Source: a virus
Lineage: Duplodnaviria > Caudoviricetes
Length of the DNA: 64,000 nt
Virus record (IMG/VR): IMGVR_UViG_3300031853_000007
Location: 1 to 64,000 of that record
Reading direction: 5' to 3' (one strand)
The notes under the pieces were generated by a model. The model did no database searches and was not told where the DNA came from. It saw only the letters and a list, made by a program, of their open reading frames with translations. Positions 11,632 to 64,000 of the stretch are shown in pieces (position 1 is the stretch's first letter; the number at the start of each line of letters is the position of its first letter). A program made the position numbers and the translations under genes.

Positions 11632-12807
11632 TCAAATATCAAGCTGTTGAATTGTCTTTGCCTTTTCTTCTTCTAGCAGGTGTACGTATGTGTTATACGT
11701 AAACGATACGCTAGAATGTCCAAGCATTTCGGATATTATCTTTATATCCACGCCCTTTCGGATCATTAAACTGGCAAAGGTGTGCCTCAACGTATGCAAC
11801 CCCTGTGGTTCGTCAATACCCGCCCTCTTACATATAGCGGCATACGAGTTAGATAGAGTCGATAAGTCTCTTTTGCCGTTACAGATATACACGTAGTCTG
11901 AACTCAGCGGGCTTCTGATTTTGTACAACTCTGACAAATATTTCTCCGCAGTTTTGGTTAAGTGTACAATTCTGCTTTTGCGTGTCTTAGTACCGACTTG
12001 CTCAATAACTTGTCGCTTATCTTGTTCGTCGTAGACAATAGCTACATTAGCCTTGACCTTGATATACTTTTCCTTGAAATTAATGTCTCGCCACCTGAGC
12101 GACACAAACTCTCCTGCACGTAATCCTGTGTATATCAGTGACACGATAGCCAAGCTATTATCGTATTCAGTCCTAAACCAATGTGTAGTCAGTGCCGTAT
12201 TGACGAAGCGTTTGATTTCATCATCGTCAAAGAAACGTATCTCTTTGGTCTGCGTAAAAACCTTCTTGGGCGGGACTTCAACACGCTCACAAGGGTTGGT
12301 AGCGATAAACTCTTGTTTAATCGCATACTTCAACGCTTCATTGGTGAGTACGTAAGCTTTGTGGATGGTGGAATGACTAAGATGCTTGGGGTTCTGTAGC
12401 AGGGAGTTGATTAACTGATTCTGGATTACTGCGGGAGTCAGATCAGATAAGCGATACCCGCCAAGGTACGGTTTAATATTGTTGCGCCAAGTACATTCAT
12501 CTCGTGTGTAACTGGCAGGTTTGAGCTTTGGTTTCTTGATATTAACCAAATAGCTCTCAAAGAAATCGGTAACTGGTGTTGTGTTCGTGATTGGTTTATC
12601 ATCTACAGCGGTAATGTCTTCCTTAAACTGGCGCATTTTGCGTATTACGTCCTCTTGGTTGCCAGCGTAGAAGCGTTTAAACCTAACTCTACCGTTTGCG
12701 TATCTGCCATTTTCTACTTGCCCTACCCATTTCTCAGTAGTTGAGTCATAATAAACCGAGCCAACGTTCTTGATGTGTCGTACTTTCTTGCTTCCTGTAT
12801 TAGCCAT
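11632..12807 (-). CDS. int: Tyrosine integrase
   Basis: TGLRAGE (R), TKT (K), HTLRHTFAS, LGHSS, Y.H; N-terminal arm-binding and SAM-like domains; adjacent to attP. Confidence 0.96.
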   Translation of the reverse strand: MANTGSKKVRHIKNVGSVYYDSTTEKWVGQVENGRYANGRVRFKRFYAGNQEDVIRKMRQFKEDITAVDDKPITNTTPVTDFFESYLVNIKKPKLKPASYTRDECTWRNNIKPYLGGYRLSDLTPAVIQNQLINSLLQNPKHLSHSTIHKAYVLTNEALKYAIKQEFIATNPCERVEVPPKKVFTQTKEIRFFDDDEIKRFVNTALTTHWFRTEYDNSLAIVSLIYTGLRAGEFVSLRWRDINFKEKYIKVKANVAIVYDEQDKRQVIEQVGTKTRKSRIVHLTKTAEKYLSELYKIRSPLSSDYVYICNGKRDLSTLSNSYAAICKRAGIDEPQGLHTLRHTFASLMIRKGVDIKIISEMLGHSSVSFTYNTYVHLLEEEKAKTIQQLDI

Positions 12808-12830
12808 GCACATCACCTCTCTTGCATCAT

Positions 12831-14825: not shown

Positions 14826-15788
14826 TTACATATCAAGTTCGTCCTTTAACTGTGTCAATCTTCTTGTATCAGTTTTGAGATAATGCTTTCTTGTTACATC
14901 TGTTCCACTGTGATTGAGTAGTGCCGATATATCTTCTAAAGGCATACCAGCAAGTGAGTACAATTGGGATTGCGTATGCCGGAAATCATGTGGGTGCCAT
15001 GAATCAACCCCAATCATCTTACCAATCTTTTTACACCAATCGTTCAGCGTTCCTGTACTAATCGGCTTATCCTCCGTGTTATATCCTGAATAAAACACCC
15101 AACCATAATCGTTTATCTTCTGTATCTCACGCTCTCTTTGAAGCTGTAACAGAAGCTCCTTTACCTCATTACTAAAGAACAGGTCAACAATCTTACCCTC
15201 TTTTTCAAGCACATCCTTGACAATTCGATTCTCAAAATCAATCTGTTCCCACCTAATGTTAGCCACCGCATTTACTCGCGCCATCGTAGACAGCGAAAAC
15301 AGTGCATAGGTTTTCAGTTGAAGATTTCCATATTCTGTAAGCTTATCCTTCATTAGCTGAACTTGTTCTTTGGTAAGAAACGTCTGTGTTACAATCGGCA
15401 ATCCCTTTTTTGGTCGGTCAAGAAATTCGCAGGGGTTCTCTAGTATAAGCTTTTTCTTTCTAAGGAACTTATAGAATGCGGAAATTGCCGCCATTCGTCT
15501 CTTCATGCGCTCCGTGTTGTTGCCTTGCTGTTTGCAGAAGTACAAGAACTCAGTAATGTCATCATCGGTTAAATCCTTAACACTTTGATTAAATTGATTA
15601 TCGAGTATGTAGATAAACCATTGCTGTAAGTCTTTCTCATACTGATATATAGTCTTCTCCGACAGGTCACGCAAGGACATATCAACCTTGTACTTCTGTA
15701 ACAACTTCTGTGTTTCAGGGTTTATTTTTTCTAACTTTTCGGGGTCATACAATACTACTCGTTTACTGCGTTTCGCTTCAACAGCCAA
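14826..15788 (-). CDS. XerC/D-like tyrosine recombinase (second recombinase)
   Basis: STMARV (R), EKEGK (K), HPHDFRH, LNHSG, HY; SAM-like N-terminus; TTG start after AGGAGG. Confidence 0.9.
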   Translation of the reverse strand: MAVEAKRSKRVVLYDPEKLEKINPETQKLLQKYKVDMSLRDLSEKTIYQYEKDLQQWFIYILDNQFNQSVKDLTDDDITEFLYFCKQQGNNTERMKRRMAAISAFYKFLRKKKLILENPCEFLDRPKKGLPIVTQTFLTKEQVQLMKDKLTEYGNLQLKTYALFSLSTMARVNAVANIRWEQIDFENRIVKDVLEKEGKIVDLFFSNEVKELLLQLQREREIQKINDYGWVFYSGYNTEDKPISTGTLNDWCKKIGKMIGVDSWHPHDFRHTQSQLYSLAGMPLEDISALLNHSGTDVTRKHYLKTDTRRLTQLKDELDM

Positions 15789-15816
15789 TAACCCCACCTC
15801 CTTTATTTCTTTTTTA

Positions 15817-16656
15817 TTATTCGTCTTTAATAGCAATTCCTGCCGCTATATAAAAAATCTGTCCACCGACTTCATAGAAGCCACAAAGCTGCGGATCACC
15901 GTATAATACCTGATACAAACCGTCAACTATTGATGTGCCAGAATTATCCATCAAAGGTATTAGCAGCACATAATTGCCTCTAGTATTAATTGTGAGGTCT
16001 GTATAATATCCAGGAGTTTCACCAAATGACTTAACAGTTCTAAATTTTCCGTTATAGTAACAAGACCACCATGCGCACTTATTCGCTCCGGCTCTACCAA
16101 AGGACATTGACATATATCCCGGCATCGACGTATCACTATCGTATCTCGGCGCCATCATAAGTACAGCATCAGAATTTGCAACCATTTCAGCATCCCAGTC
16201 TGTGCCTGATGAAATATTAACTCTAAACGTATCAGAAAAACTGCCACCATACGTTCCAAGCGTCCATGATGGATCTCCAGAATACGGACTTGTCTTTGCC
16301 TGAACGTTACCGAAATACAAATGTACTTCTGTATCGGAATCATACATGGAATCATAGTCGAATACCGACGACGAATACAAAAACATTGATGGTAAAACTT
16401 CAAGTCTATCGTACTCTGTCGTTGAAAATATCTTATGCTCCAAATTATGAGTATCAGCAAATGTTTTGGCTATGGGAATGCCAAAATAGCCCGAATCTTT
16501 AGGCACATTCACGGTCACACTACTGTAGCCGTCCGCACCATCATCACTCGCATTATACACGCCGTTCTCGGTAATGGTCTTTTCCGCTGTTGAGAGTTTA
16601 ATCTGCACACTGTGAATCCGATCCAATCCTTGTGATGTTTTGATATTTAAGCTCAT
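15817..16656 (-). CDS. Putative tail fibre/accessory structural protein
   Basis: KTITENGVY.A..DGADGYSSVTVNV motif seen in phage tail proteins; position in tail module. Confidence 0.6.
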   Translation of the reverse strand: MSLNIKTSQGLDRIHSVQIKLSTAEKTITENGVYNASDDGADGYSSVTVNVPKDSGYFGIPIAKTFADTHNLEHKIFSTTEYDRLEVLPSMFLYSSSVFDYDSMYDSDTEVHLYFGNVQAKTSPYSGDPSWTLGTYGGSFSDTFRVNISSGTDWDAEMVANSDAVLMMAPRYDSDTSMPGYMSMSFGRAGANKCAWWSCYYNGKFRTVKSFGETPGYYTDLTINTRGNYVLLIPLMDNSGTSIVDGLYQVLYGDPQLCGFYEVGGQIFYIAAGIAIKDE

Positions 16657-32322: not shown

Positions 32323-33286
32323 TTATCGACCTACAACGAGGTCTTGTTTCGCTTCACGGACATATCTGTCAAAGTATTCTTTAAACTTGTCATAGTTATC
32401 AACTATAACAGAACCTTCCATTACCCACGTGCGTTGCTGATTATATGTTGCACCAGAATTGTTTATAACTTTATTCTGAGCGTAATTATAATCTCTGATG
32501 GGTAAACCATTGAATACAGTATTAGATTTAGCAAATGCGGAACCTATACTTGTAGGTACAGACTGCATCAGCTTAGAGTTAAGGAACCGATTAAGCTTTT
32601 CTTGTGCTGAATCGCTAAGTCTTGAATGAGTAGTCTTCGGTTGAGTTCTAGCGTCATTCAATTCTTTGTTGCTATACTTTTCACCCTGTTTGTCGTACTC
32701 GGGATCGAAGTATTTTCTCATTTCATCGTACGACCCAAACATATCCATAAACTTGCTTACATCAAACCCTTCTTTGTTAAGAGCTTGAAGCATAGCACGG
32801 AAACGATCAAGTGCGGCAGTTTGTTCATCTGTTGCTTTTGCAAACTCGGCTGAGTAATTCTTGTAGAAATCAAGATACTCTTTCTGGTCATTTCGGAGTT
32901 CCTCATAAACCGAAAGTTTCTTTTCAAGCCGCTCGATTTCGTTGTCAATCTCTTTAAGCCGTACATCAGTAATCTCTTTGATTCGGTCTTGTATTTTACC
33001 ATACTCTGTTTGATACTGAGATACTATGCTGAGGTCTTGACTTGCAATTTTCTCACGCCAGTCTTTACCGAAAACGGCGGCGGCGTTCATCTCATCTTGA
33101 CCATTCTTCCAAGCGTCAACCGCCTCTTGCCAAGTTTCCTTGTAATTATTCCATGATTCGATTTGAGCATCATAGTTTGCAAGAGCAGCTTCTTTTTCTT
33201 TTTCAAGGTCTTCGATTTCATACTCACGAACCAAATCGTCATATTCCTTTTGGGCTTTTTCGACTTCTTCGGTGTTGGTTTCTATT
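32323..33286 (-). CDS. Tape measure protein exon 3
   Basis: Joining TGG GT|A ATA GAA gives RGWVIETNTEEVEKAQ, in frame with ORF 33234-32323. Confidence 0.9.
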
Positions 33287-33575
33287 CAATCTGTTACTTT
33301 CCCGTTTTCACGGTACTGACCCTTTCGGGCGGGTAGTCATTTCTGGCTACCTCTCACGTTTCATCGTTAAGTTATAGCGTGAGTTCGGACTGTATCTTCA
33401 CCCTCTATATTAATAGTAGGGGAGTAGCGAAGGTCTGTATGTTACCATACTAACCACTTTACAGTCTCTACGGTTTCTTTGTATAAAGTCTTACCTCGGT
33501 CTTATCTACTTCTAGACTTTAACCGATATAGCTACTTGTTTATAATATATTACTATATTAATGGGCAATATTATT
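33287..33575 (-). ncRNA. Group I intron 2 of TMP (289 nt, no ORF)
   Basis: P1 TGGGT/GCCCA with U.G; P10 TATT/AATA; P7 GACTGTA/TACAGTC (GTAGAGACTGTA, GAAGATACAGTCC); terminal G at 33287. Confidence 0.92.
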
Positions 33576-36028
33576 ACCCAACCTCTTGATGCTGAATACC
33601 GCCTAACCTTATTGTTTTTAGCCTTTTCAAGAGCAAGCTCCTTTTCACGTAGTTCGTTTATACGGTCACGTTCCTCAGCTTCCTCTTTTAGTGCGTCAAT
33701 CTGGTTGTCGTAGTATTCCTCAACTGCGGCTTTCTGCCGTTCAAGAGCGTCAATCTGCTTGTCGATTTGGCGGGTTACCGCATTAACAGCAGAATCGTAA
33801 AGCGCCGCCTGTTCTTCAAGAGTTTCTTTCTCCTCTTCAAGGACTTCGCGCGCCTCTTTCCGCTTCTTGATTTCCTTGTTGATCTTGTTGATAGTTTCGG
33901 TCAACTTGTCAATATTAGCCTGAATAAGCTCCTTTTCTTTAGCGTAAGCATCGTTTGTATCTTCGACTTCGGTTGTTATATCACGGTCAATTCTGAGCAG
34001 CTCAATCGCTTGCTTGAGAACTGCTTTGATATTTTCGTCGTCGGTAGAATTGTACATGAGAAGCAATTCTTTAAGAGAACTTTCGGTAGTGGTATTGATA
34101 AGCTCCTGCATACGCTGTTTGAGAGTATCGGCATCATTAGCATATTGGAGTAAGTCGGGGAACTGGTCAAAGAAGTCATCGCCGAGAGTTCCACCCTCTT
34201 CAAGAGTTTTGTATGCAGACTTAAGAGGATTGATGGTATTGTCGATAAGGTCTTTGAGTGTATTCTCTGTTCCGTCTATTGTGCGGACACCGTAGAAGTC
34301 GTGCCAATTGAAGGATTCGGCTTTAAGGATACCACTAATTGTACGTTTGATTTGATCCTTGTCGGGATTAAACCAGTTAATCTTATTATTGATTTCACCC
34401 TGAACTAGTTTTAAGAAAACTTCAAGTTCGCTTTCATTAAGTTCAGGAATGATTTCAGCAATGAATCCTCGCTTGTTGCCACTATGGAAACCAAATCTTT
34501 CGTCAAAAGCAGTATTGATTTTACTAATCCAATCATAAATCTTTTGTTGAGTTTGAGCTTCATCGGTATCAATAAAGAATTCACTAAGATCCGGCATACT
34601 ATTTAGAATGGAATCAATAGACGCAACGATAGCTTCATTAGAACCTAAGAAACGATTTTTATATTCATCTACACTGTCGGCAGCAGATAACATATCCTCT
34701 CTTAACTGATTAAATTCCTCTTGAGTTTTAGGTACGCCGTTTTGGTCGGTAATATCCAAGTAAAGCATTTGAGCAACAGCGGAATTTGCAGCGTCTCTTA
34801 ATTCTTTAGCTTTTTCATAGGAGCCTTGTAAATCCTCTTGCTTCTTTAGGATGCTATCCCATAACTTATTACCCTCTAATTCTTGTTGAGTATATAATCC
34901 TTTAATTCTTCCCTCTTCAAGAATCTTTTGCATTTCTAATAATTTTTCGTATGCCTCGATTGCAGAATCTAAATCATCGACTTCGCCAATATCGAAAAAA
35001 TCAATGTTTACATCACGACCACCAGTTAAGAGATCTAGTGGAAATATTCCTGTGCTCATCTTCTTAACTTCTGTTTCATACTCGATTCCTGCTTTTTTAA
35101 GCTGATCAACCATTTTACTAGTGGATTCGTCATCTATATCAAATGTTATTTCATTATATTTTCCACTAATAAATGAATCTTTGGTTTTCTTTTGGAAGTT
35201 TTCTAGTTCTTTAGTGTATCCAGCAAAAGCATCGCTATAATCTTGTTTGAGAGCATCAGTCGTTACCTTATTGATACTACCATCTAAGTCGTCATATTTT
35301 TCTCTAAGAGTTTTAATTTCGTCTTCCTCATAACCTAAAGCTTTCAAAAGAGCGTCGGTTTTATTTGTGAGATTTTCTTTTGAAGCCGCACCCTCGTCGT
35401 ATGCACTTTTAACAGAGGAATATTCTCCATATAGTGATCGAATTTGTTTAATTTCAGATTCCGCTTCCTCGCCTGTTTCTATTATCTGCTCTTTTAATTC
35501 TTTTTGCTTTTGAATTAAATTAGCTACTAAACCGATGGTGGCAGATATAATCATACTGATTCCAGCAGATGCTAACCCAGAAACTATTTGAGCGCCCATA
35601 TTTTTAAGTGCGCTCCAAGCGCTATCTTTCACATAAGCCGCAAGGCTTGCTTTAGCTCCGTTAAGCTGAACCAACTGACTACCTAATGCGTTATTAGTTT
35701 CAAGAATAGCTTCCGCCATCTTACCTCTAGAAACACTGTCGGCTTGTGCGTTATACATATTAATAGCTTTTATGCCACCCCAAAATCCGCTAGTAACTTT
35801 AACCTGAGACTGATAGAAGTCTTTTGCAGAATAATTAGCTGCATCGGTTGTTAGTGCATACTCTTTCAGTCTGTGATTTAATCCATCTTGAAGCTGAATT
35901 TGGTCTTTAGTTAATGTCCCTAACTTGACCAATTCCATCTCCGCTGTTTTATAATCAGGTAACTCTACTCCTCTAATTTGACGAAGGAATATTTTTTCAC
36001 CATCTTTTATGTTGCTAGTGTCGAATAT
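33576..36028 (-). CDS. Tape measure protein exon 2
   Basis: Frame open 90 nt upstream of the ATG at 35938 (IFDTSNIKDGE...); hydrophobic segment and long coiled coils. Confidence 0.9.
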
Positions 36029-36077
36029 CAGACATAGTTAATGTGTAAATTTGTGGATAATAAACACATTTTCAATC

Positions 36078-36106
36078 TTGACAATATATTAATTCAATGA
36101 TATAAT
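36078..36106 (+). promoter_or_regulatory. Consensus sigmaA promoter inside the intron, antisense to TMP
   Basis: TTGACA-17 nt-TATAAT with TG extension. Confidence 0.9.
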
Positions 36107-36141
36107 TATATAAAAACAATAATTAGAAAGAGGTGTGATAA

Positions 36142-36747
36142 GTGAAAAGAAGTATTTACCTTATAATAGTTGGAATAATGCTTGTGATAAGTATGATTCT
36201 GGTTATATTTTTAGTTGTTCAGCGAAAAACATATAGTGGCGCGTATGATTCCTATAGTCATTCTAATCATTTAGATAATGATTTTGAAAAATACATTAGA
36301 GACTCAAATTTTCGCAGTTCTAATCAAACACCTATATTTCTAGCGTATCTCGGAAAAGATAAAACAATTGATAATTCCACCAATATCGTTTTAACTGTAT
36401 GGATCTGGGACGATGTGAATAACCAAAATATAGAAAAAAACTGGTCTGAACTTTCCTCGGAAGAAAAAAAGAATGACCTTCGTGAATGTGCAGAACTGGT
36501 TGAAAAATTCTTGAAAAACAAAGATGTACCTTATAGTTATCATATTTACGTAAACGTTCAAAACACCTCCAAATTAGGAAATTATGTTTACGACAAATCT
36601 CATGATTCAATATGGATACCAAATTGTGAAGAGAAAATAAAAAAAGGTGAATATGATGAACCACCATCATTAAAGGAAGGATATCATGTCTGCATATTAA
36701 ATAGTAAATTCACAGAAGTTGGCAAAGAAGAATCCACCCCATACTAA
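36142..36747 (+). CDS. Intron-borne antisense gene: N-terminally anchored membrane protein
   Basis: MKRS plus ~22 hydrophobic residues; own promoter, RBS AGAGGTG and terminator. Confidence 0.85.
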   Translation: MKRSIYLIIVGIMLVISMILVIFLVVQRKTYSGAYDSYSHSNHLDNDFEKYIRDSNFRSSNQTPIFLAYLGKDKTIDNSTNIVLTVWIWDDVNNQNIEKNWSELSSEEKKNDLRECAELVEKFLKNKDVPYSYHIYVNVQNTSKLGNYVYDKSHDSIWIPNCEEKIKKGEYDEPPSLKEGYHVCILNSKFTEVGKEESTPY

Positions 36748-36750
36748 CAA

Positions 36751-36778
36751 GAGCCACCCGAAAGGGTGGTTTATTTTT
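36751..36778 (+). terminator. Intrinsic terminator between the two intron cargo genes
   Basis: GCCACCC-GAAA-GGGTGGT then TTATTTTT; weak U-tract on the minus strand. Confidence 0.85.
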
Positions 36779-37202
36779 ACCAATCCACCCCGGACACATC
36801 GCCTGTCACAATCGACTCAATGATACCTACAGAGACAACCATACATTTGCCTTCATCATAAGGATGTTCTATTCTCAGGTTTCCCTTTAACTCGCCGTCT
36901 AAGAATTTCTGATAATCCTCTTCCGATATGTATCCCCAAGGATTACAAGACCAAAAGTCGTTTGTATCAACATAAACTAAAATATATCCGTCGGGTTCTC
37001 TAAGTGATGGTTCATTGGCTTCATTTCCTTCACCTATACAGTATATCCCAATAGTTAGAGCGGCAAATATCAATATAGCTATTATACACCTAAGCCAAGC
37101 GTCTCTGCATTCCTTTTTCTCAGCTTGTCCCCACGTTTCGTCTTCCCATTTTTGTGTTTTACGTTTGGGTTTGGGTTCATCTGATTCACGCCTATAACTC
37201 AT
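36777..37202 (-). CDS. Intron-borne sense gene: single-TM membrane protein
   Basis: RBS AAGGAAG; charged N-terminus then CIIAILIFAALTIGIYCIG; no nuclease motif. Confidence 0.8.
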   Translation of the reverse strand: MSYRRESDEPKPKRKTQKWEDETWGQAEKKECRDAWLRCIIAILIFAALTIGIYCIGEGNEANEPSLREPDGYILVYVDTNDFWSCNPWGYISEEDYQKFLDGELKGNLRIEHPYDEGKCMVVSVGIIESIVTGDVSGVDW

Positions 37203-37538
37203 TTTAATCTTCCTTTCTTTCTATTCCTTTCGCACTTTCCCACCGTAGCAGCGAATCGCTACGTATGATTTTCTACGTTCCCGTAGTTGTCTGGAGTACC
37301 CCATGACGACTCTCGCCGCCCTACCATTATACTCTCTGAACCTTCCTACTAAGTAGGCTTGGCTGCGGATTATGCGGTATCTCAACCGCCCTTCCCGAAC
37401 GAGATTCATAAAACTCGTTACGCAATGCGCCAGTTTCGGTAGTTTTTCCAAAGCTCTCTTGTCAATTAAATCGACTCGTTCCGTGTTACCACCAGAGCTT
37501 ACTCGGGCATATTCATCGAGGGTAAACATTCTAACCCT

Positions 37539-40500
37539 ACCCGAGCCAGTTTTATCTTTGAGTTTCGCTTGAAGCGCAGTCATTCCGCCGAATGCCAGAA
37601 GTCCTGTACCCAAGCCTTTCATATCTTTGAGAACATCAAGAATATCGTTGAGTCCTCCGCCGAATTTAACAACCCAGTCTAAGCCGTCCTTGACAAGCTC
37701 ACTATCCACGACGTTGGTGGAAAGCGTCTGCCAAACAGACTGGATCTGATTAAGTTTTCCTTGAATGGAGTCGAGCGCGGTTTCTAACTCGCGGTCAGCC
37801 GAACCCTCAGCCATTCCTTCGTTTAATTCCTTGACAACATCTCTTGCGGTCTCGAAGTTTTCAAGCATAGCATAAACGGTGTTAATGCCGACTTTACCGC
37901 CGAGCATTTCGCCGATTCTAGCTTGGTCTGTATCATTGAGGTCTTTCCAAACCTTAGAGAGATCGTTGAGGATATCGTATGTGCTGCGGAAACTGTGCTC
38001 GTCGAGCATGATTTCCACGCCAGAGATTGATTTGATTTCTTCTCTCAACTTCGATACCGTCATGGTCATCTCTTCGCCCTCTTCTTCGAGTTCGCTCTTC
38101 GCGCCACGAATTCGAGCAGAGATGGTCTTAAGGGATGTTCCCATCTTTTCAGGATCTTGGATAATTTCGTTACCTGCCGTTGTTAAAGCAATCGCCTCTG
38201 AAAGCGTATTATTCGCGGCGACCAAAGACGAAGCAGAACGTTGTAAGGATTCGCCTAGCCCTGAGCTGGAAACTGCAAAATTGTTCCCGACATAATTAAA
38301 TTTATCAACAATTTCCTCTGCCGTATCACCCATACTCTGATATGCCTTCATAGTAGAGATAATACTTTCACTCGCCGTACCAATATCCAAATCCTCAGCA
38401 ACCGTCTTGTACTTCGATGCAATCTCACCGAGCTTCTGTGCTTCTTCAAGCTGATAACCCAGCCTGCTGAATGTCGCCGTCGAGTCAATCTGGTCAGTTA
38501 AAGTTGTGCCGAGTGCTATCGAAGATTTCTGAACAGACTTCTGATATTTAAGAAGAGACTGTTCGGAAGCATCTGTGACCTTGCGGAGATTAACCATCGC
38601 GGTATCAACTTCTTTGACCTGAGTAACCATGTCTTTCATCAGTCGGAGACCCTGAGTGATAGTTCTCGTTACAAGCGTCCAGCCACCGAACTTCTTGAAC
38701 ATCGCAGTGAGGACACTACCAGTAGTCTTACCGTTCTTACCGGCTAATACGATTTGGGAATTAAATTCCGCGAAGTCCGCATTAAACCTTCTTAGATCGG
38801 CGTCGCTAGTTATAAGACCATTTCTAAGTCTATCCATGAAGTCCGCATACTTTGCTGCGTTTTCAGGATATGTTAGAGCCTTAGAGTTAAGCTTACCCCA
38901 TGCTTCAAGTTCGGATATTCTATTATCTATCTTTGTTTTAAGTGATACGCCCCTGTTGCTTTCTTTCTCAACTTTAGCAGATTCTTTATTTGCAGAGATA
39001 AGTTGATTAACCGCGTATCTTGCATCATTTACGTTTTCAACATAGACACCCATTGGCTCCACAAGGTTAGCCATTACCTCATCGCGGTACTTTTTAAAAT
39101 CGGACTCGGATGCAAACTGACCCGGAGAATAACTATTTAAAGAATCCTTTGTATTAAAATACCGCCCAATGGTTCTTTCTGCCTCCGCAAGGGTTCTGCC
39201 ATCACCAATCTCAACCGTATTGAGATCTATGTTATTATCTTTAGCTTGCTTAATTAACCTATCAATTTCTAGTATTTTCTTTTCTAACTTTTGGAGACCC
39301 CCGATTGCATCATCAAACGAAAGAATATCCTCCACTTCATCATCCGAATGAGATATAAGTGTATCTACCGATTTGGTTACGTTTCGCAGTGACTCATTAA
39401 CGTTATCTATCGCATCTTCCGCTGCTTTAATTCCGCTAACATCTAATTCCTGAGATAACCAATACTCCTCGGTATTTTTAACTTTCTCGATACCATCGCT
39501 AAGTCTTTTAATTGCATCGTCGTAAGCTGAGGTATCTACATGAGCATTACTAAGTTCGTCTCTTAATGCTATTAATTTTTCAAGCGCTTCTTCGGCAAAG
39601 TTTACTGACGAATCGGTGTTGAACATATCATAGTATTGAGATACAAAACTCGGAACCGAGGTGTTGTTATACTCATTATTAGCCTCAGTTAAAAACGCAT
39701 CGGCTTCCAGTAAAGCTTTAGTAGACGGGTCTTTTCTTGTTGCAACATTATTAACCTTGATTAACTTATCTCTTATTTTCTCAAGTTTAGAGAGTAAGTC
39801 TTGTACGTCGCTATCGGGCAGTAATGTATCTTCAAGACCGCCAGTAGAAGAAAGTAGAAATTGCAATTCTTTAATCTCCCGCTGTACTTCGGGTAATAAA
39901 CCTTCTGTTTCTACGAGCATTTGTCCCGCATTTCGATTAGGTAATTGTGGTGATGCAGGCTGCTTAGGAGGTTTTGGGTTACCACCGCCAGACGGAGTAT
40001 TGGATGGCGGGGTAGCAGGTACGGGTGTATTACCCGAACCATTATTGGTCACTTGTATACCATTGGAAATCTTATTATAGATACCATTAATTATAGCCTT
40101 TGCTTCTTTGATATCCTGCTTGGTTTCATCTACATCCTCGAATATAAGGTCGGTAGAGGCAGACGCTTGTTTAACGTTATTGTCAATATCCAGAAGACTG
40201 TTGCCTATTAGTTTATACTCCGCTTCACTCCAACCTATATTATCATTAGGTTTGCTAGGTGTTATATTGTCGGGAGGATTAGAATTATCCGCATTTATAG
40301 CATAAGATTCTGCTAAACGTTCATTCTGTGCATCAATTTCTGCATCAACAAACTGTTTGATTCTATCGGCTAAGTTATTAACGCTTCTATTTGTTTCGCT
40401 AATAGCTTCACTCATTCTCTTGAAAGCTTCTTTGAGTCCCACGTTTTTGTTTGAGTTTTTATTACTTAAATCATCTGCGGTATTTTTATTGCTCTCTAAA

Positions 40501-41648
40501 TTATTGGATTCCGCAGTAGTATTATTATTTACCGCCTGAGTATTTTCAGAAATAGCATTAGCTAAATCCTGTACAATATCGCTCTTTATGACATTAGTGT
40601 CTATCTTTTCTGGTTTATATCGACTCAAATCTCTACCGGAATCCTGTCTTAGTTCATCCAGCATATCAGAGATTTTGTTTCGGTTATAAATATCGCCAAC
40701 TTGTATTTGTTTGGGCATCTTTGATGCTTCTTTTGTGCTATAAAGACCGTTTTTTACACCGAGATCAACAGCTTGGGTAAATTGATTTTTAAATTCTTTA
40801 GCTATTTGCGTAACGACTTTTTCAATGTTTCGCCCATTTATTTCCGTTCCTTCGGGTATGTATTTCAAGTCCTTTAATTTGTCAACAATTGCAACTCTTT
40901 CTTCTTTGGTAGCCGCCTTGTATTCTGCAAGAATCTCCTTTGCAATCTGAACAGAACCTACATAGTTTGTTTTAAGAACAGAGTCCACACCTTTTTTGCC
41001 AGTCTTATTATCGTCTGTAATAGGTACACGGGCTTTATTGGCATCCTTGTCTAACATACCTTCATACGCATTAGCTACATCATTAACAGTTTTTAATTTT
41101 CGAGCCATCTCATCAAATGACTCATTTATCCGTAAAACCGCTTTTTCAACATACTCAGCGCCTTTTAATGTCTTGATTTCATCAACATTAGAATCAGAAG
41201 ATTGAGACTTAATACTTGATTTAGCGGATTGTGTTTCTTTGGGTTCGGGTCTCTTTGCAACTTGCGGGACTGAATTGGAAGTATTATCCATAAACGGTGC
41301 CAAAGCTTTAATAACCTTCTTTAATTCCTTTAAATCAGATATTAGTTTCGGTAAATCACCAGCTATATTTACCTCTAAATCAATAGAATCTCCATCATAC
41401 GCAGCGTGTAATTCTTTAAATTCTGCATCTACGGATTCTGCGTCGGCTGAAATATTTAATTTTAATTCATTATCGTTTAATGCTTTTGTTAAGTCTTTTA
41501 AAAAATCATCATTGTTAGTAGAAACGTCCAATTTAATGCCTTTTTCTTCAAGTTTCTGTAAAACCTTTTCAAATTCATCAATATTTTTTGCATCTACGCT
41601 AGGTACTATTTCTAAATCAAATATACTTCCATTCATTTCATCTGCCAT
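37539..41648 (-). CDS. Tape measure protein exon 1 (spliced product about 2508 aa)
   Basis: TMP core VDTAMVNLRKVT...FSRLGY...VDKFNYVGNNFAVSS...GTSLKTISARIRG...FRSTYDIL; exons 4110+2453+964 nt = 2509 codons. Confidence 0.93.
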
Positions 41649-57985: not shown

Positions 57986-58590
57986 TAGCATCGTAGGATA
58001 CCACATTTATATTTACACAGACCTTCGCCTTACCTCCATTAACTTTCCATGTTGTTCGACCACTGAGAAGTCAAGGCTGAATATAAAGGAGCTACCTTTA
58101 TACTTCTTGACTACTTATAAACCTCAGGCGGGACTGTTACCCACAAATTTCACCAAACGTTCAGCATTACCCCCGAAGAGGATTTATTCATCTTAAATTC
58201 TATAATACTTTAGAAGAATAAACTTTACTTGTGATATGGCTACTCTAACTGGCGACTTGTCTTATACCCCGTTTGACCGAGTTCAACACAAATGCGATTG
58301 CTTGGATTACCCAAGGAACCCCACGGTTTCCACGCCGCAGGTTTTGGGCTTATTCTACACACGTAGCGTCTATTACTCGCACGACAAGTTCCATGTCTTA
58401 CACAACGTTAACTCTTAGCACCACCACTAATATCAAGGGTTTCCCTTTCTTGCTTATACGTCACCGCATAAGAATCGACTTATCATCACAAGTATCCTTG
58501 CAATAATATTCGGTTAAGTAGCGTCTCGGCAGGGTGTTAACCATCTGCACCGAGTTGTTGTAAATATAAATCTAGCATCCTACAATGCCA
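57986..58590 (-). ncRNA. Large structured ncRNA (~605 nt), ROOL-like
   Basis: Ends pair (GCATTGTAGGAT..ATTTATATTTACA / TGTAAATATAAAT..ATCCTACGATGC); long-range stems TACTTGTGAT/ATCACAAGTA, ACTTGTC/GACAAGT, AGTCAAG/CTTGACT; starts right after tRNA-Asn; no credible ORF. Confidence 0.7.
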
Positions 58591-58592
58591 AG

Positions 58593-58665
58593 CTCTCCGA
58601 CTAGGACTCGAACCTAGAACCGACTCGTTAACAGCGAGCTGCACTACCGCTTGTGCTATCGGAAA
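58593..58665 (-). tRNA. tRNA-Asn(GTT), CCA not encoded
   Basis: Full cloverleaf: TTTCCGA/TCGGAGA, GCAC/GTGC, GCTCG-CTGTTAA-CGAGT, CTAGG-TTCGAGT-CCTAG. Confidence 0.9.
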
Positions 58666-58723: not shown

Positions 58724-58795
58724 TTGCGCGCTCAAGAATCGAACTCAAAACCGTAGGTCATGACCCTACTCGTGTTACCATTACACCAACGCGCG
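58724..58795 (-). tRNA. Atypical tRNA with CAT anticodon (initiator-like C1:A72 mismatch)
   Basis: CGCGCGT/GCGCGCA, GTGT/ACAC, GTAGG-GTCATGA-CCTAC, TTGAG-TTCGATT-CTTGA. Confidence 0.7.
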
Positions 58796-61566: not shown

Positions 61567-61926
61567 CTTTTGTGTTTGCCGGTGTCGCTAATACCGACGG
61601 TTTCCCCTCATGCTTTCACATGAGAACAGACTATATCTTCACCATATAAAGGTGTACACCATAGCAGGATGTCAATAGCTTACATTCCCACACTCTTTCG
61701 AGTTAGTCGTTGAGCCTTTCCCTATTCGGGACTTGGTTGCGCGGTTGCCGATTATACCACACTTAGGATTTAACCTTATGCTATACACATTGTTCTTTCT
61801 GCTTTCGCCGCTATCACGCTCAGACATATTTCATTCTCACGTTGTAGCCAATGTGTCTTTACGGGTTTCCCGCAGTTAGATGTATTTATTTATGCACACA
61901 TTTCTGTATACCGAGACCAATAATCA
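61567..61926 (-). ncRNA. Group I intron (360 nt, no ORF) in the RNA polymerase gene
   Basis: P1 GAGAT/GTCTC with U.G; AACTGCGGGAAA, GGCAACCGCGCAACCAAG, GCTCAACGACTA, GAAGATATAGTCT; terminal G at 61567. Confidence 0.92.
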
Positions 61927-64000
61927 ATCTCTACATTAGAAAGAATTGCCAATTTAACTATATCATCATACAACTCCTGATTATCTTCAAACGTCTGTCC
62001 ACTATGTATATTGTTCCAGAATAACGTGTTGAGTTCCTGAGACAGATTAACTATCTCACCGATTTTGTTTACGCTGGTCTTTATATCAAGGTCACACTTG
62101 TCGCTATTGTTATAGTAGCGCTTTCTCTTGATAGCAGAAACCAGAGATGTGGGGATGGCAAACTTAGAGTAATTGCGTTCTGCGGCAGCTATCAACAACT
62201 TGTTATTAGTGAGCATCATTGTATCACTATCAAAATCGGCGCCGTTGAGCTTCTCTAATAGATTCTCATTTATGCTATTCACACACACAATTTCTTCGGT
62301 AAGGAAGAAGTAATCGTCTATATGCTTGCTCTCCACGTTATTCGCCAATAGTATGTTACCCGCGCAGATATGCGGACTTCTCGATCCGAGTAACTTCTTT
62401 CCATACTCGAACCGCACGTTATGTATGTTTCCCACACCCAAATCAGATTCGCCGTTGAATCTTCCGATAGACTGCAACAGCATCTCATATGGATTGCCAA
62501 GTAGCGTACTGTAATTGCCATTTACCAGAACGTGACCCGACATAAGGTTCTTCTTGAACGATACAAGCAAGTCCTTTAGAAAGTCGTGGTACAGTTTAGT
62601 CTCGGTAAACTTCTCATTGATACCAAGGAGCTGATACACTATGTCGTTCTTATTTGCTATCTCCTCTAAGTTAATGGGCGGATTCTCGGGGTACTTAATA
62701 TGGTGACGCACGACAGCAGGATTGTACCGCAGGTTAGACATATACTCGAAGGACTCCGCAAGTAAACGATCAACTTCCTTTTCCGAAAGCTGTAAAGTGT
62801 TGAGCAACTGATAGTGTGTCTGAACTAATCTACCATCGAAATAGTGTGTAGGCTTTTCATGCTTTACTACACCAAACGTGGTTTCGAGGTTATCGAGCCA
62901 CTGGTCGAGCGTTCCGAACTTTAAGAACTTGATGCTACTCGGCGTGGTTATCAACTTGATGTCCTCAATTGATTTAGCGCGGGTATAACCGTTAAGCTGC
63001 GAAACCTCGGTGATTCCATTATCGGCAAAGAACTTCTGAATGTGGGTAGAAAACGCGGCAGTCTTGAAGAAGCGGTTACGAAGCAGGAGCATACTGTAGT
63101 GGCTGTATTTTCCGTACATCGAATAGTCCATAAGAGTCTGACCGTCCCATATACTGTTGTTTACCTCAACAAAGTCGTTGGTTGTCTGGAGCGAAGTTCC
63201 ATCATATGAGACAGCGGCGGCTCTATCCTTAAACACGCTATTGTAATCGTCGATCACCAGAATGTTTTCAGGCTGTATCTCAATCGTGTCAATGATACTA
63301 CTGAGTGTCAGCGATATGTAAGCTTCAAAAGCAGCGAGGTCTATCTCGTCACCGTCGCGGATTTTTAAACCACAGCATTCCCATTTGTGCATACGGCTGT
63401 ACAGCTTCTCGTCGATGAACAGACACTTGCCAACGCGGGAGCTACCACTACTGCGCTTGAAACGGATATATTTGATACCGTCGCAGTAGAACCCATTATT
63501 ATAGAGTTCGTTACGCAGGTCAGCAACACTATTCAGTACCAAAATATTATCTTTAGCGTAGTACTTCTTATCCTTGACGTAGAAGAACTTACCGAGAACT
63601 TCGGGGTCGTCCACAATCTTGTCCATTTCCTTATTGGTTTGGATAGCAATAAGTTCGCCGTCTTCTATGCAGATACCGTCGGTAAGCGTGATGTCGTTTA
63701 TGTCGTAGCCGAACTTAACGTAGATGTCAGAAGTGATTCGGTTATAGAGTTTGTTGCTGTAGTTAAAGTTGACGTTGATGATGCGCTGGGTATACTCCTT
63801 TTCGCCTATAAAAAAAGAAAACCGCTTGTTGCGGTAGACTTTAGTGTATACGTCTCGGAGTTTAAATAGGTCGAGACAGTAATCGAGGTCGCCCGAAAAC
63901 TTGCGGGGACTGATTGAACCATCGCGGCGGCGGATATTATAACCAAGAGGATTTGGCTTGTTATAGTGGTTGGCTATGTAGATATCCTTAGCGTCGAGGT
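61927..64000 (-). CDS. YonO-like single-subunit RNA polymerase (cRdRP-related two-barrel family), exon 1; start lies outside window
   Basis: Frame open to the window edge; RSSGSSR.G.C.F, DG, R.....K, RSPH, LNGADFDSD catalytic motif, IG.IVN. Confidence 0.88.

What the first reader, a model, noticed from the sequence alone, without database searches (positions are those of the whole stretch)
33576..37202. Possible superinfection-exclusion gene physically nested in the TMP gene it may act on
Seen: the antisense cargo gene is the only credible plus-strand gene in about 52 kb of minus-strand genes, has a host-type consensus promoter and an N-terminal membrane anchor, and directly abuts TMP exon 2, which begins with a hydrophobic segment and looks AT-richer than the TMP core. 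Established: membrane-anchored exclusion proteins such as Ltp of Streptococcus phage TP-J34 act on TMP during DNA injection. Inference: cargo plus the start of exon 2 may be a co-exchanged specificity module, expressed in the lysogen while the late operon is silent.
Basis: inference. Interest (0 to 1): 0.75.

Follow-up and report, generated by a model that had tools for sequence, protein, structure and literature searches.

The report
Antisense membrane-protein gene inside tape-measure intron
A gut phage's tail tape-measure gene is split by a self-splicing intron that carries a backwards-facing, self-promoted gene for a cell-surface protein; it may block rival phages, but nothing ties it to the tape-measure protein.

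Summary
The antisense gene is real: 36142-36747(+), 201 aa, a 12/12 TTGACA-17-TATAAT promoter, RBS, a plus-strand-only terminator and a strong N-terminal membrane anchor. It lies in the 3' cargo part of a 1,510-nt group I intron (37538..36029, minus strand) that splits the tape-measure (TMP) gene. P1 and P10 guide pairings covary with both exon ends across 76 related IMG/VR loci.

Two details of the observation fail. Exon 2 does not begin with a hydrophobic segment; that segment starts about 145 residues in. The start of exon 2 is not AT-rich (39.4% GC against 39.6% for the window). Only the cargo gene (31%) and its promoter tail (21%) are.

The exclusion idea gets circumstantial support. Remote relatives of the protein are lipobox lipoproteins. 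In two Clostridia MAGs the gene sits directly upstream of a phage integrase, the slot that ltp holds in TP-J34.

The protein is not Ltp-like in sequence, and its model matches no solved structure. It shows no TMP mimicry. In relatives the same intron slot usually holds a soluble zinc-ribbon protein.

Slot gene and exon-2 type do travel together in relatives, but physical linkage explains that.

This scan's notes report the same cargo-carrying TMP intron family in at least 42 other genomes.

The parts
37539..41648 (-). TMP exon 1 (1370 codons; ends ...CUCGGGU)
   Evidence: PF10145 at residues 1039-1251 and phrog_4211 at 5.5e-68. The exon end pairs with the intron guide GCCCGAG, with U.G at the splice site.
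36029..37538 (-). Group I intron 1 (1,510 nt): ribozyme at the 5' end, cargo in the 3' tail, terminal G at 36029
   Evidence: P1 and P10 (GAAUAU/AUAUUC) pairings are present. The spliced frame is open for 2,508 aa. A homologous intron lies at the same codon in L004, L058 and 76 IMG/VR loci.
37221..37538 (-). Ribozyme core (P1-P9)
   Evidence: Partial Rfam RF00028 match to P4-P6, 19.4 bits, E 0.01. RNAalifold on 11 homologues gives 34 of 66 pairs with compensatory changes.
36777..37202 (-). Sense-strand cargo gene P0002 (141 aa): basic N-terminus, one TM helix, acidic C-terminal domain of about 85 aa
   Evidence: ORF and RBS. KD 2.61 at residue 39. Five homologue clusters at 55-95% identity. 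No family match. The model is weak (pLDDT 66).
36751..36772 (+). Hairpin terminator between the convergent cargo genes, with a T-tail on the + strand only
36142..36747 (+). Antisense cargo gene P0001 (201 aa): N-terminal membrane anchor plus an acidic alpha/beta ectodomain of about 170 aa
   Evidence: GC is 31.0%.
36078..36106 (+). Consensus sigma-70 promoter (TTGACA-17-TATAAT, with TG) driving P0001
   Evidence: 12 of 12 positions match.
33576..36028 (-). TMP exon 2 (starts AUAUUC)
   Evidence: The frame runs on from exon 1. It is homologous to exon 2 of L004 at 28-36% identity.
35513..35596 (-). Hydrophobic segment of TMP, exon-2 residues about 145-172 (not at the start of the exon)
   Evidence: conserved in L004.
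33287..33575 (-). Group I intron 2 (no ORF)
   Evidence: Rfam RF00028 at 35.5 bits, E 2.2e-6, below the gathering score. L004 reads straight through this site. The spliced frame is open.
32323..33286 (-). TMP exon 3

Best explanation
P0001 is a moron: a self-contained accessory gene parked, backwards, in the 3' cargo section of a self-splicing group I intron that interrupts the tape-measure gene.

Shown:
- The intron's splice sites are supported by covarying guide pairings.
- The gene has its own strong host-type promoter, RBS and terminator.
- Its base composition is foreign to the phage.
- It encodes a membrane-anchored extracytoplasmic protein of a small, sporadically distributed family. 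The remote members are lipoproteins, and some sit next to prophage integrases.

Inferred:
- It is transcribed by host RNA polymerase in the lysogenic or carrier state, when the late operon is off.
- Its acidic ectodomain is displayed on the outer face of the membrane.
- It acts there as a prophage-conferred surface factor, most probably superinfection exclusion (blocking adsorption or DNA entry of other phages).

Its place inside the TMP gene is best explained by the intron serving as a safe docking site. Anything inserted between the ribozyme and the distal 3' splice site is spliced out of the essential mRNA. A functional tie to the TMP is not needed to explain the location.
For: Intron:
- P1 has U.G at the splice site, P10 is 6 bp, the last intron base is G, and the spliced ORF is open for 2,508 aa.
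- P1 guide and exon-1 end covary in four combinations. P10 guide and exon-2 start covary in three, across the family.
- 34 of 66 core pairs show compensatory changes.
- 72 of 77 loci have a TMP exon-1 homologue ending just before the core.

Cargo slot:
- Intron lengths run from 0.9 to 4.0 kb in the tabulated loci, about 5.2 kb in L093, with varied ORFs.
- L004 carries a different antisense gene behind another 12/12 promoter.

Moron signature:
- Promoter and terminator; GC 31% against 39.6%.

Surface protein:
- TM anchor.
- A family of 25 representative clusters, the remote ones with lipoboxes.
- A confident model of the ectodomain, with net charge -9.

Exclusion-type context:
- In L137 and L138 the family gene is directly upstream of a tyrosine integrase, and in L137 it follows an HTH protein. 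ltp occupies this position in TP-J34 (PMC3952083).
- In L134 it lies between an Mrr nuclease/zinc-ribbon gene pair and a resolvase.
- The family was found in 1 of 400 sampled Clostridia genomes, as expected of an accessory gene.
- The phage record has three tyrosine recombinases.
Against: - There is no functional evidence of any kind.
- No similarity was found to known exclusion or defence families.
- No informative structural match was found; the best were Z 5.7 to a DUF487 protein and Z 5.1 to a CamS lipoprotein.
- Only 2 of 5 MAG contexts are clearly prophage lysogeny modules; L135 is not.
- The host is unknown, and lysogeny is inferred only from recombinase genes.
Confidence: 0.5

Rival explanations
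1. P0001 is an Ltp-like exclusion protein that acts on tape-measure proteins during DNA injection. It forms a co-exchanged specificity module with the start of exon 2, so each phage carries an excluder matched to its own TMP allele.
For: - The ectodomain is membrane-anchored and acidic (net -9). Ltp is reported to use acidic residues against the basic C-terminal end of the P008 TMP (PMC3952083).
- In relatives the gene type in the antisense slot largely tracks the exon-2 N-terminal type while the exon-1 C-terminus stays constant.
- In 17 of 35 loci the antisense promoter's -35 box lies inside exon 2, starting at +16 from the splice site. There, slot gene and exon start are physically interlocked.
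Against: - There is no Ltp homology, and the model is mixed alpha/beta.
- No TMP-like motif was found (best E 3.4).
- P0001 is 31% GC and the start of exon 2 is 39.4%, so they were not acquired together.
- In this window the promoter lies wholly inside the intron.
- The usual slot occupant is a soluble zinc-ribbon protein.
- The co-variation has exceptions: exon-2 cluster 5 pairs with slot clusters 5 and 6, and slot cluster 1 pairs with exon-2 clusters 1 and 7. Plain adjacency predicts this pattern. The partial correlations with exon 2 (0.53) and exon 1 (0.48) are similar.
Confidence: 0.08
2. P0001 is a lysogenic-conversion surface factor unrelated to phage defence, for example in adhesion, nutrient or peptide binding, or envelope stress. 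It benefits the host in the gut.
For: - The family consists of extracytoplasmic lipoproteins or anchored proteins of gut and rumen Clostridia MAGs.
- The weak structural neighbours are surface lipoproteins such as CamS (ESM Atlas TM 0.47).
- The L135 copy is not in an obvious prophage.
Against: - The integrase-adjacent position in L137 and L138, and the defence-island-like neighbours in L134 (Mrr nuclease), favour a phage-conflict role.
- The family is very rare: 1 of 400 genomes.
Confidence: 0.2
3. The two convergent membrane proteins, P0002 (sense) and P0001 (antisense), work in the lytic cycle, for example in lysis timing or late-infection exclusion. Alternatively, the main role of the strong antisense promoter is regulatory: transcriptional interference with, or antisense pairing to, the TMP pre-mRNA in the intron's 3' part.
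For: - P0002 lies on the late-operon strand with its own RBS, so it would be made from unspliced or excised intron RNA.
- An antisense promoter next to the 3' splice site is conserved across the family whatever the cargo.
Against: - P0001 is conserved as a protein: 52-71% identity in close homologues, with many invariant residues, and a confident fold.
- The + strand terminator confines the antisense transcript to about 660 nt of intron.
- No lysis-gene similarity was found.
Confidence: 0.12

Closest known systems
Ltp of Streptococcus thermophilus phage TP-J34 (superinfection-exclusion lipoprotein; PMC3952083)
   Same: [quoted passage not shown] Relatives of P0001 (L137, L138) occupy the same integrase-adjacent slot as ltp.
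   Different: There is no sequence similarity. P0001 has a TM anchor rather than a lipobox. The model is mixed alpha/beta. The gene sits inside a TMP intron rather than in the lysogeny module. The function is untested.
Group I introns in tape-measure genes (B. cereus-group prophages TMP-IVS1-3, PMC2504315; ICP1 TMP intron with confirmed splicing, PMC10448857)
   Same: A group I intron interrupts a TMP gene, with P1 and P10 guide pairing to the exons.
   Different: Those introns carry homing endonucleases, their remnants, or nothing. This family carries 0.5-5 kb of non-nuclease genes, some antisense with their own sigma-70 promoters.
IStrons (group I ribozyme fused to an IS element; PMC4227781)
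   Same: The ribozyme is at the 5' end, foreign genes sit between the core and a distant 3' splice site, and splicing makes the insertion harmless.
   Different: The cargo here has no transposase (no Pfam match). The element has a fixed position in one phage gene.
Phage morons (own promoter and terminator, foreign composition, expressed from the prophage)
   Same: All three moron hallmarks are present for P0001.
   Different: Classic morons sit between genes. This one sits inside an intron of an essential gene, on the opposite strand.

Membership tests
Ltp-type superinfection-exclusion lipoproteins | Signal peptide with a lipobox cysteine (lipid anchor) | tested here: not met
   P0001 and its close subfamily have an uncleaved-looking TM anchor with no lipobox Cys. 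Only remote relatives (P0013-P0031) have L-x-[GA]-C.
Ltp-type superinfection-exclusion lipoproteins | Sequence similarity to the Ltp repeat domain | tested here: not met
   Pfam, PHROG and PADLOC scans of P0001 returned no family at E <= 0.01.
Ltp-type superinfection-exclusion lipoproteins | Fold of the Ltp active domain | tested here: inconclusive
   The model (pLDDT 90) has 4 ectodomain helices and 9 strands. No Ltp chain appears among the Foldseek or VIA-align matches, but absence from those lists is not exclusion.
Ltp-type superinfection-exclusion lipoproteins | Gene in the lysogeny module next to int, transcribed in the prophage | tested here: not met
   In the window the gene lies in the TMP intron. 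Relatives L137 and L138 do sit directly upstream of an integrase. Transcription cannot be tested here.
Ltp-type superinfection-exclusion lipoproteins | Blocks DNA injection by acting on the incoming TMP | not testable with these tools
   This needs expression and phage challenge.
Group I intron (host element of the gene) | P1 helix between the internal guide and the 5' exon end, with U.G at the splice site | tested here: met
   CUCGGGU pairs with GCCCGAG. U.G is invariant in 11 of 11 sequences, and the flanking pairs covary.
Group I intron (host element of the gene) | 3' terminal G and P10 pairing to the 3' exon | tested here: met
   G at 36029; GAAUAU pairs with AUAUUC. P10 covaries in three guide/exon combinations.
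Group I intron (host element of the gene) | Conserved catalytic core supported by covariation | tested here: met
   34 of 66 consensus pairs have compensatory changes.
Group I intron (host element of the gene) | Score above the Rfam RF00028 gathering threshold | tested here: not met
   Intron 1 gives only a 19.4-bit partial match. Intron 2 scores 35.5 bits against a threshold of 50.
Group I intron (host element of the gene) | Self-splicing demonstrated | not testable with these tools
   This needs RT-PCR or in vitro splicing.
Moron | Own promoter and terminator, deviant base composition, placement within a late-gene block | tested here: met
IStron | IS transposase gene in the 3' part of the intron | tested here: not met
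   Neither cargo protein matches any transposase family.

The most novel reading that the evidence does not exclude
In this phage clade the antisense slot gene and the first part of TMP exon 2 are a functional pair. They are inherited together across a recombination boundary that lies inside the intron. The slot protein (a zinc-ribbon protein, or here a surface protein) is matched to the TMP allele it sits beside, giving allele-specific self/non-self discrimination between related phages.
Probability: 0.06. Interest if true: 0.85.

Novelty: new variant of a known kind. Interest (0 to 1): 0.45.

Why it matters
If P0001 is an exclusion or surface-conversion factor, an intron of an essential virion gene can serve as a protected docking site for prophage-expressed accessory genes. 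Standard annotation misses such genes, because the TMP is called as two or three separate ORFs and the antisense gene looks like an orphan.

The family-wide data also mark the intron as a recombination boundary between a conserved exon 1 and a highly variable exon 2.

The P0001 family itself is an uncharacterised group of Clostridia and phage surface lipoproteins found in ltp-like positions. That makes it a reasonable candidate for a new exclusion family.

Tried and rejected
- Megablast of the 9-kb region against GenBank phages found no match. tblastn of P0001 against the same phages found none either.
- P0001 gave no relatives in IMG/VR or JGI metagenomes. The second metagenome scan, with an intron 20-mer, returned only the L004 phage again.
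The contigs of P0005, P0006, P0009-P0012 and of the P0002 homologues could not be read. The decisive co-variation test for this gene family was therefore impossible.
- Rfam at gathering thresholds missed both TMP introns.
- Fold searches of the P0001 model gave nothing above the background level: PDB Foldseek, BFVD and VIA-align wide. The ESM Atlas also gave nothing useful.
- The P0002 model was too weak to search with.
- A test for TMP mimicry by the cargo proteins was negative.
- No P0001 or P0002 homologue occurs in the other 77 intron loci.
- The weak IMG/VR relatives of P0002 (L002, L003) are not next to a TMP or an intron core.
- I considered that the region might be two separate TMP-like genes with intergenic morons. 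I rejected this because P1 and P10 covary with the exon ends.
Full report
**What is there.** The window is the first 64 kb of a 112-kb IMG/VR virus record, estimated 96% complete. Genes from 11.6 kb onward run on the minus strand.

The tape-measure gene is in three pieces:
- Exon 1, 41648..37539. It holds PF10145 and matches phrog_4211 at 5.5e-68.
- Exon 2, 36028..33576.
- Exon 3, 33286..32323.

Joined, they give one open frame of 2,508 aa.

**The first intron.** The first gap (37538..36029, 1,510 nt) is a group I intron.
- Exon 1 ends CUCGGGU and pairs with the guide GCCCGAG, with U.G at the splice site.
- The adjacent guide bases GAAUAU pair perfectly with the first six bases of exon 2 (AUAUUC).
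- The last intron base is G.
- Rfam sees only a partial P4-P6 match (19.4 bits).

**The second intron.** The second gap (33575..33287) matches RF00028 at 35.5 bits. The relative L004 reads straight through that site.

**The intron is a family.**
- L004 is a 117-kb phage whose TMP core is 60% identical. It has a homologous intron at the same codon (...KTGSG|I...), about 79% identical across the core by blastn (85% mean column identity), with compensatory changes.
- GenBank scaffold MT837120.1, from human faeces, has it too.
- A core pattern found 76 IMG/VR loci, mostly on 75-150 kb contigs.
- In 72 of 77 loci a TMP exon-1 homologue ends just upstream of the core.
- The P1 guide covaries with the exon-1 end in four combinations. 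The P10 guide covaries with the exon-2 start in three: GAUUGU/ACAAUC, UGAUGU/GCAUCA and GAAUAU/AUAUUC.
- RNAalifold on 11 diverse cores gives 34 of 66 pairs with compensatory changes and an invariant U.G.
- Intron lengths range from 0.9 to about 5 kb.

Group I introns in TMP genes are already known, from B. cereus prophages (PMC2504315) and from ICP1, where splicing was confirmed (PMC10448857). I found no paper describing such introns with non-nuclease, self-promoted cargo. This scan's own notes report the same cargo-carrying TMP intron in at least 42 other genomes. The intron is therefore not new to the scan, and those notes are not independent evidence.

**The cargo in this window.** The whole ribozyme sits in the first ~320 nt of the intron. 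Two convergent genes follow.
- P0002 (37202..36777, sense strand, 141 aa) has a basic N-terminus, one TM helix and an acidic C-terminal domain (net -13).
- P0001 (36142-36747, antisense, 201 aa) has a 12/12 TTGACA-17-TATAAT promoter with a TG extension, an RBS and a GTG start. Its hairpin terminator has a T-tract on the plus strand only, so it should not stop the TMP transcript.
- P0001 has a very hydrophobic N-terminal anchor (KD 3.41) and an acidic ectodomain (net -9).
- P0001 is 31.0% GC (GC3 25%) against 39.6% for the window. P0002 (40.6%) and exon 2 (38.3%; first 500 nt 39.4%) are ordinary.

Gene, promoter, anchor, uniqueness on the plus strand and closeness to exon 2 (49 nt from the -35 box to the splice site) all hold. 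Two details do not hold.
- Exon 2 starts hydrophilic. Its hydrophobic segment is about 145 residues in, and L004 shares it.
- The start of exon 2 is not AT-rich. The compositional argument for a joint 'cargo plus exon-2 start' module therefore fails. P0001 looks like a later, separate arrival.

**What P0001 is.**
- A word-based search of 5.8 billion proteins found only two homologue clusters, at 71% and 52% identity.
- A profile search of 1.84 billion representatives found 25 clusters. The close ones (P0009-P0012) also have TM anchors. The remote ones (215-225 aa) begin with typical lipoprotein signal peptides ending L-x-[GA]-C. The domain is therefore extracytoplasmic.
- The family matches nothing in Pfam, PHROG or PADLOC.
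- The family was found in 1 of 400 sampled Clostridia genomes.
- AlphaFold2 with the 23-sequence alignment gives a confident alpha/beta model (pLDDT 90, pTM 0.83). It has no convincing match in the PDB or BFVD. The best were Z 5.7 to a DUF487 protein and Z 5.1 to a CamS lipoprotein domain, both within the background range.

**Context of relatives.** Five MAG loci hold lipoprotein members, from rumen, rabbit and other gut Clostridia and one Treponema bin.
- In L137 the order is HTH_3 protein, lipoprotein, tyrosine integrase, all on one strand, with a DUF1351 phage gene nearby.
- In L138 the lipoprotein gene is again directly upstream of an integrase.
- This mirrors int-ltp-repressor in TP-J34, where ltp is expressed from the prophage and blocks DNA injection (PMC3952083).
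- In L134 the gene follows an Mrr-type nuclease and a 249-aa zinc-ribbon protein, and precedes a resolvase.
- L135 has no obvious phage context.

This is the best support for an exclusion or defence role, but it is circumstantial.

**Is the slot tied to the TMP?** In 30 or more relatives the gene that abuts exon 2 is also antisense. There it is a 200-260-aa protein without TM segments (KD about 1 or below). Most of these share a C-terminal zinc ribbon (CPxCxSxN...GKxxxCxxC). The same ribbon occurs in L004's 155-aa cargo and in the L134 neighbour. The slot is therefore conserved, but its occupant is usually not a surface protein.

In 17 of 35 loci the antisense promoter is TTGACT-17-TATA(A/C)T with its -35 box inside exon 2, starting 16 nt past the splice site. 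In those phages the slot gene's expression signal and the first codons of exon 2 overlap physically. In the window and in L004 the promoter lies wholly inside the intron.

I clustered exon-1 C-termini, slot proteins and exon-2 N-termini from 27 loci. One exon-1 type pairs with six exon-2 types, and the slot type mostly follows the exon-2 type. There are exceptions in both directions. Partial rank correlations of slot similarity with exon 2 (0.53) and with exon 1 (0.48) are similar. Related sequences share labels, so this does not show functional coupling. It is what adjacency across a recombination boundary inside the intron would give.

I did not rely on it.

**Other tests.**
- Neither cargo protein contains a TMP-like segment (best E 3.4). 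That lead came from note e1-199841.
- Membrane-protein cargo of other, unrelated kinds recurs in relatives' introns, as sense ORFs of 185-218 and 324-346 aa with TM segments.
- The phage record has three tyrosine recombinases, so a temperate or plasmid-like state is plausible.

**Verdict.** The object is a moron for a surface-anchored protein housed in the cargo bay of a TMP group I intron.
- Exclusion of other phages is the most likely single function. I put it at roughly one in three.
- A broader 'prophage-expressed surface factor' reading is about one in two.
- The specific claims, that it acts on TMP and is co-exchanged with the start of exon 2, are not supported for this gene. I rate them at under one in ten.

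One tool, the look-up of encoding contigs, was closed. This blocked the direct co-variation test on P0001's own homologues.

Noticed in passing
window 58001-58578 (-), tRNAs 58593-58665 and 58724-58795 (-): A full-length ROOL RNA (RF03087, 324.9 bits) lies immediately beside two tRNA genes in the phage.
   Followed up: no
window 61607-61936 (-): A third group I intron, above the Rfam gathering score (73.7 bits), lies at the 3' end of the open frame that runs off the window end (61890..63998). The host gene was not identified.
   Followed up: no
L059-L133, e.g. L063, L066, L108 (3' splice site +11..+16): In 17 of 35 related loci the antisense promoter straddles the 3' splice site. Its -35 box (TTGACT) lies inside TMP exon 2 and its -10 box in the last intron bases. 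The first codons of exon 2 are therefore constrained by a promoter on the other strand.
   Followed up: partly
L063:9117-9734(-), L100:5471-6163(+), L004:11528-11995(-), L134:7232-7981(+): The usual antisense occupants of the intron slot share a C-terminal zinc-ribbon module of about 45 aa (weak PF23451-like match). The same module occurs in a MAG protein that lies next to an Mrr nuclease and a P0001-family lipoprotein. Its function is unknown.
   Followed up: partly
L063:7344-7844(+), L062:4042-4554(+): Sense-strand intron cargo in relatives includes 166-170-aa proteins that match retroviral-type aspartyl protease families (PF13975, PF13650) near their cut-offs.
   Followed up: no
L094, L105, L108, L111, L128 (TMP residue 1170/1171) and L086 (1253/1256): Several relatives show further gaps of 0.3-1.6 kb inside TMP exon 1. 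This suggests additional introns at other TMP sites.
   Followed up: no
window 11632-12816 (-), 14826-15836 (-); G000 65749-66231 (-): Three tyrosine recombinase genes lie in one phage record. Two of them are close together near the strand switch.
   Followed up: no
protein clusters P0009/P0032 and P0012/P0036; P0010/P0033 and P0012/P0034: Members of different P0001-subfamily clusters are recorded on contigs of identical length (8,959 and 6,368 bp). Two paralogues may sit on the same contig. This could not be checked.
   Followed up: no
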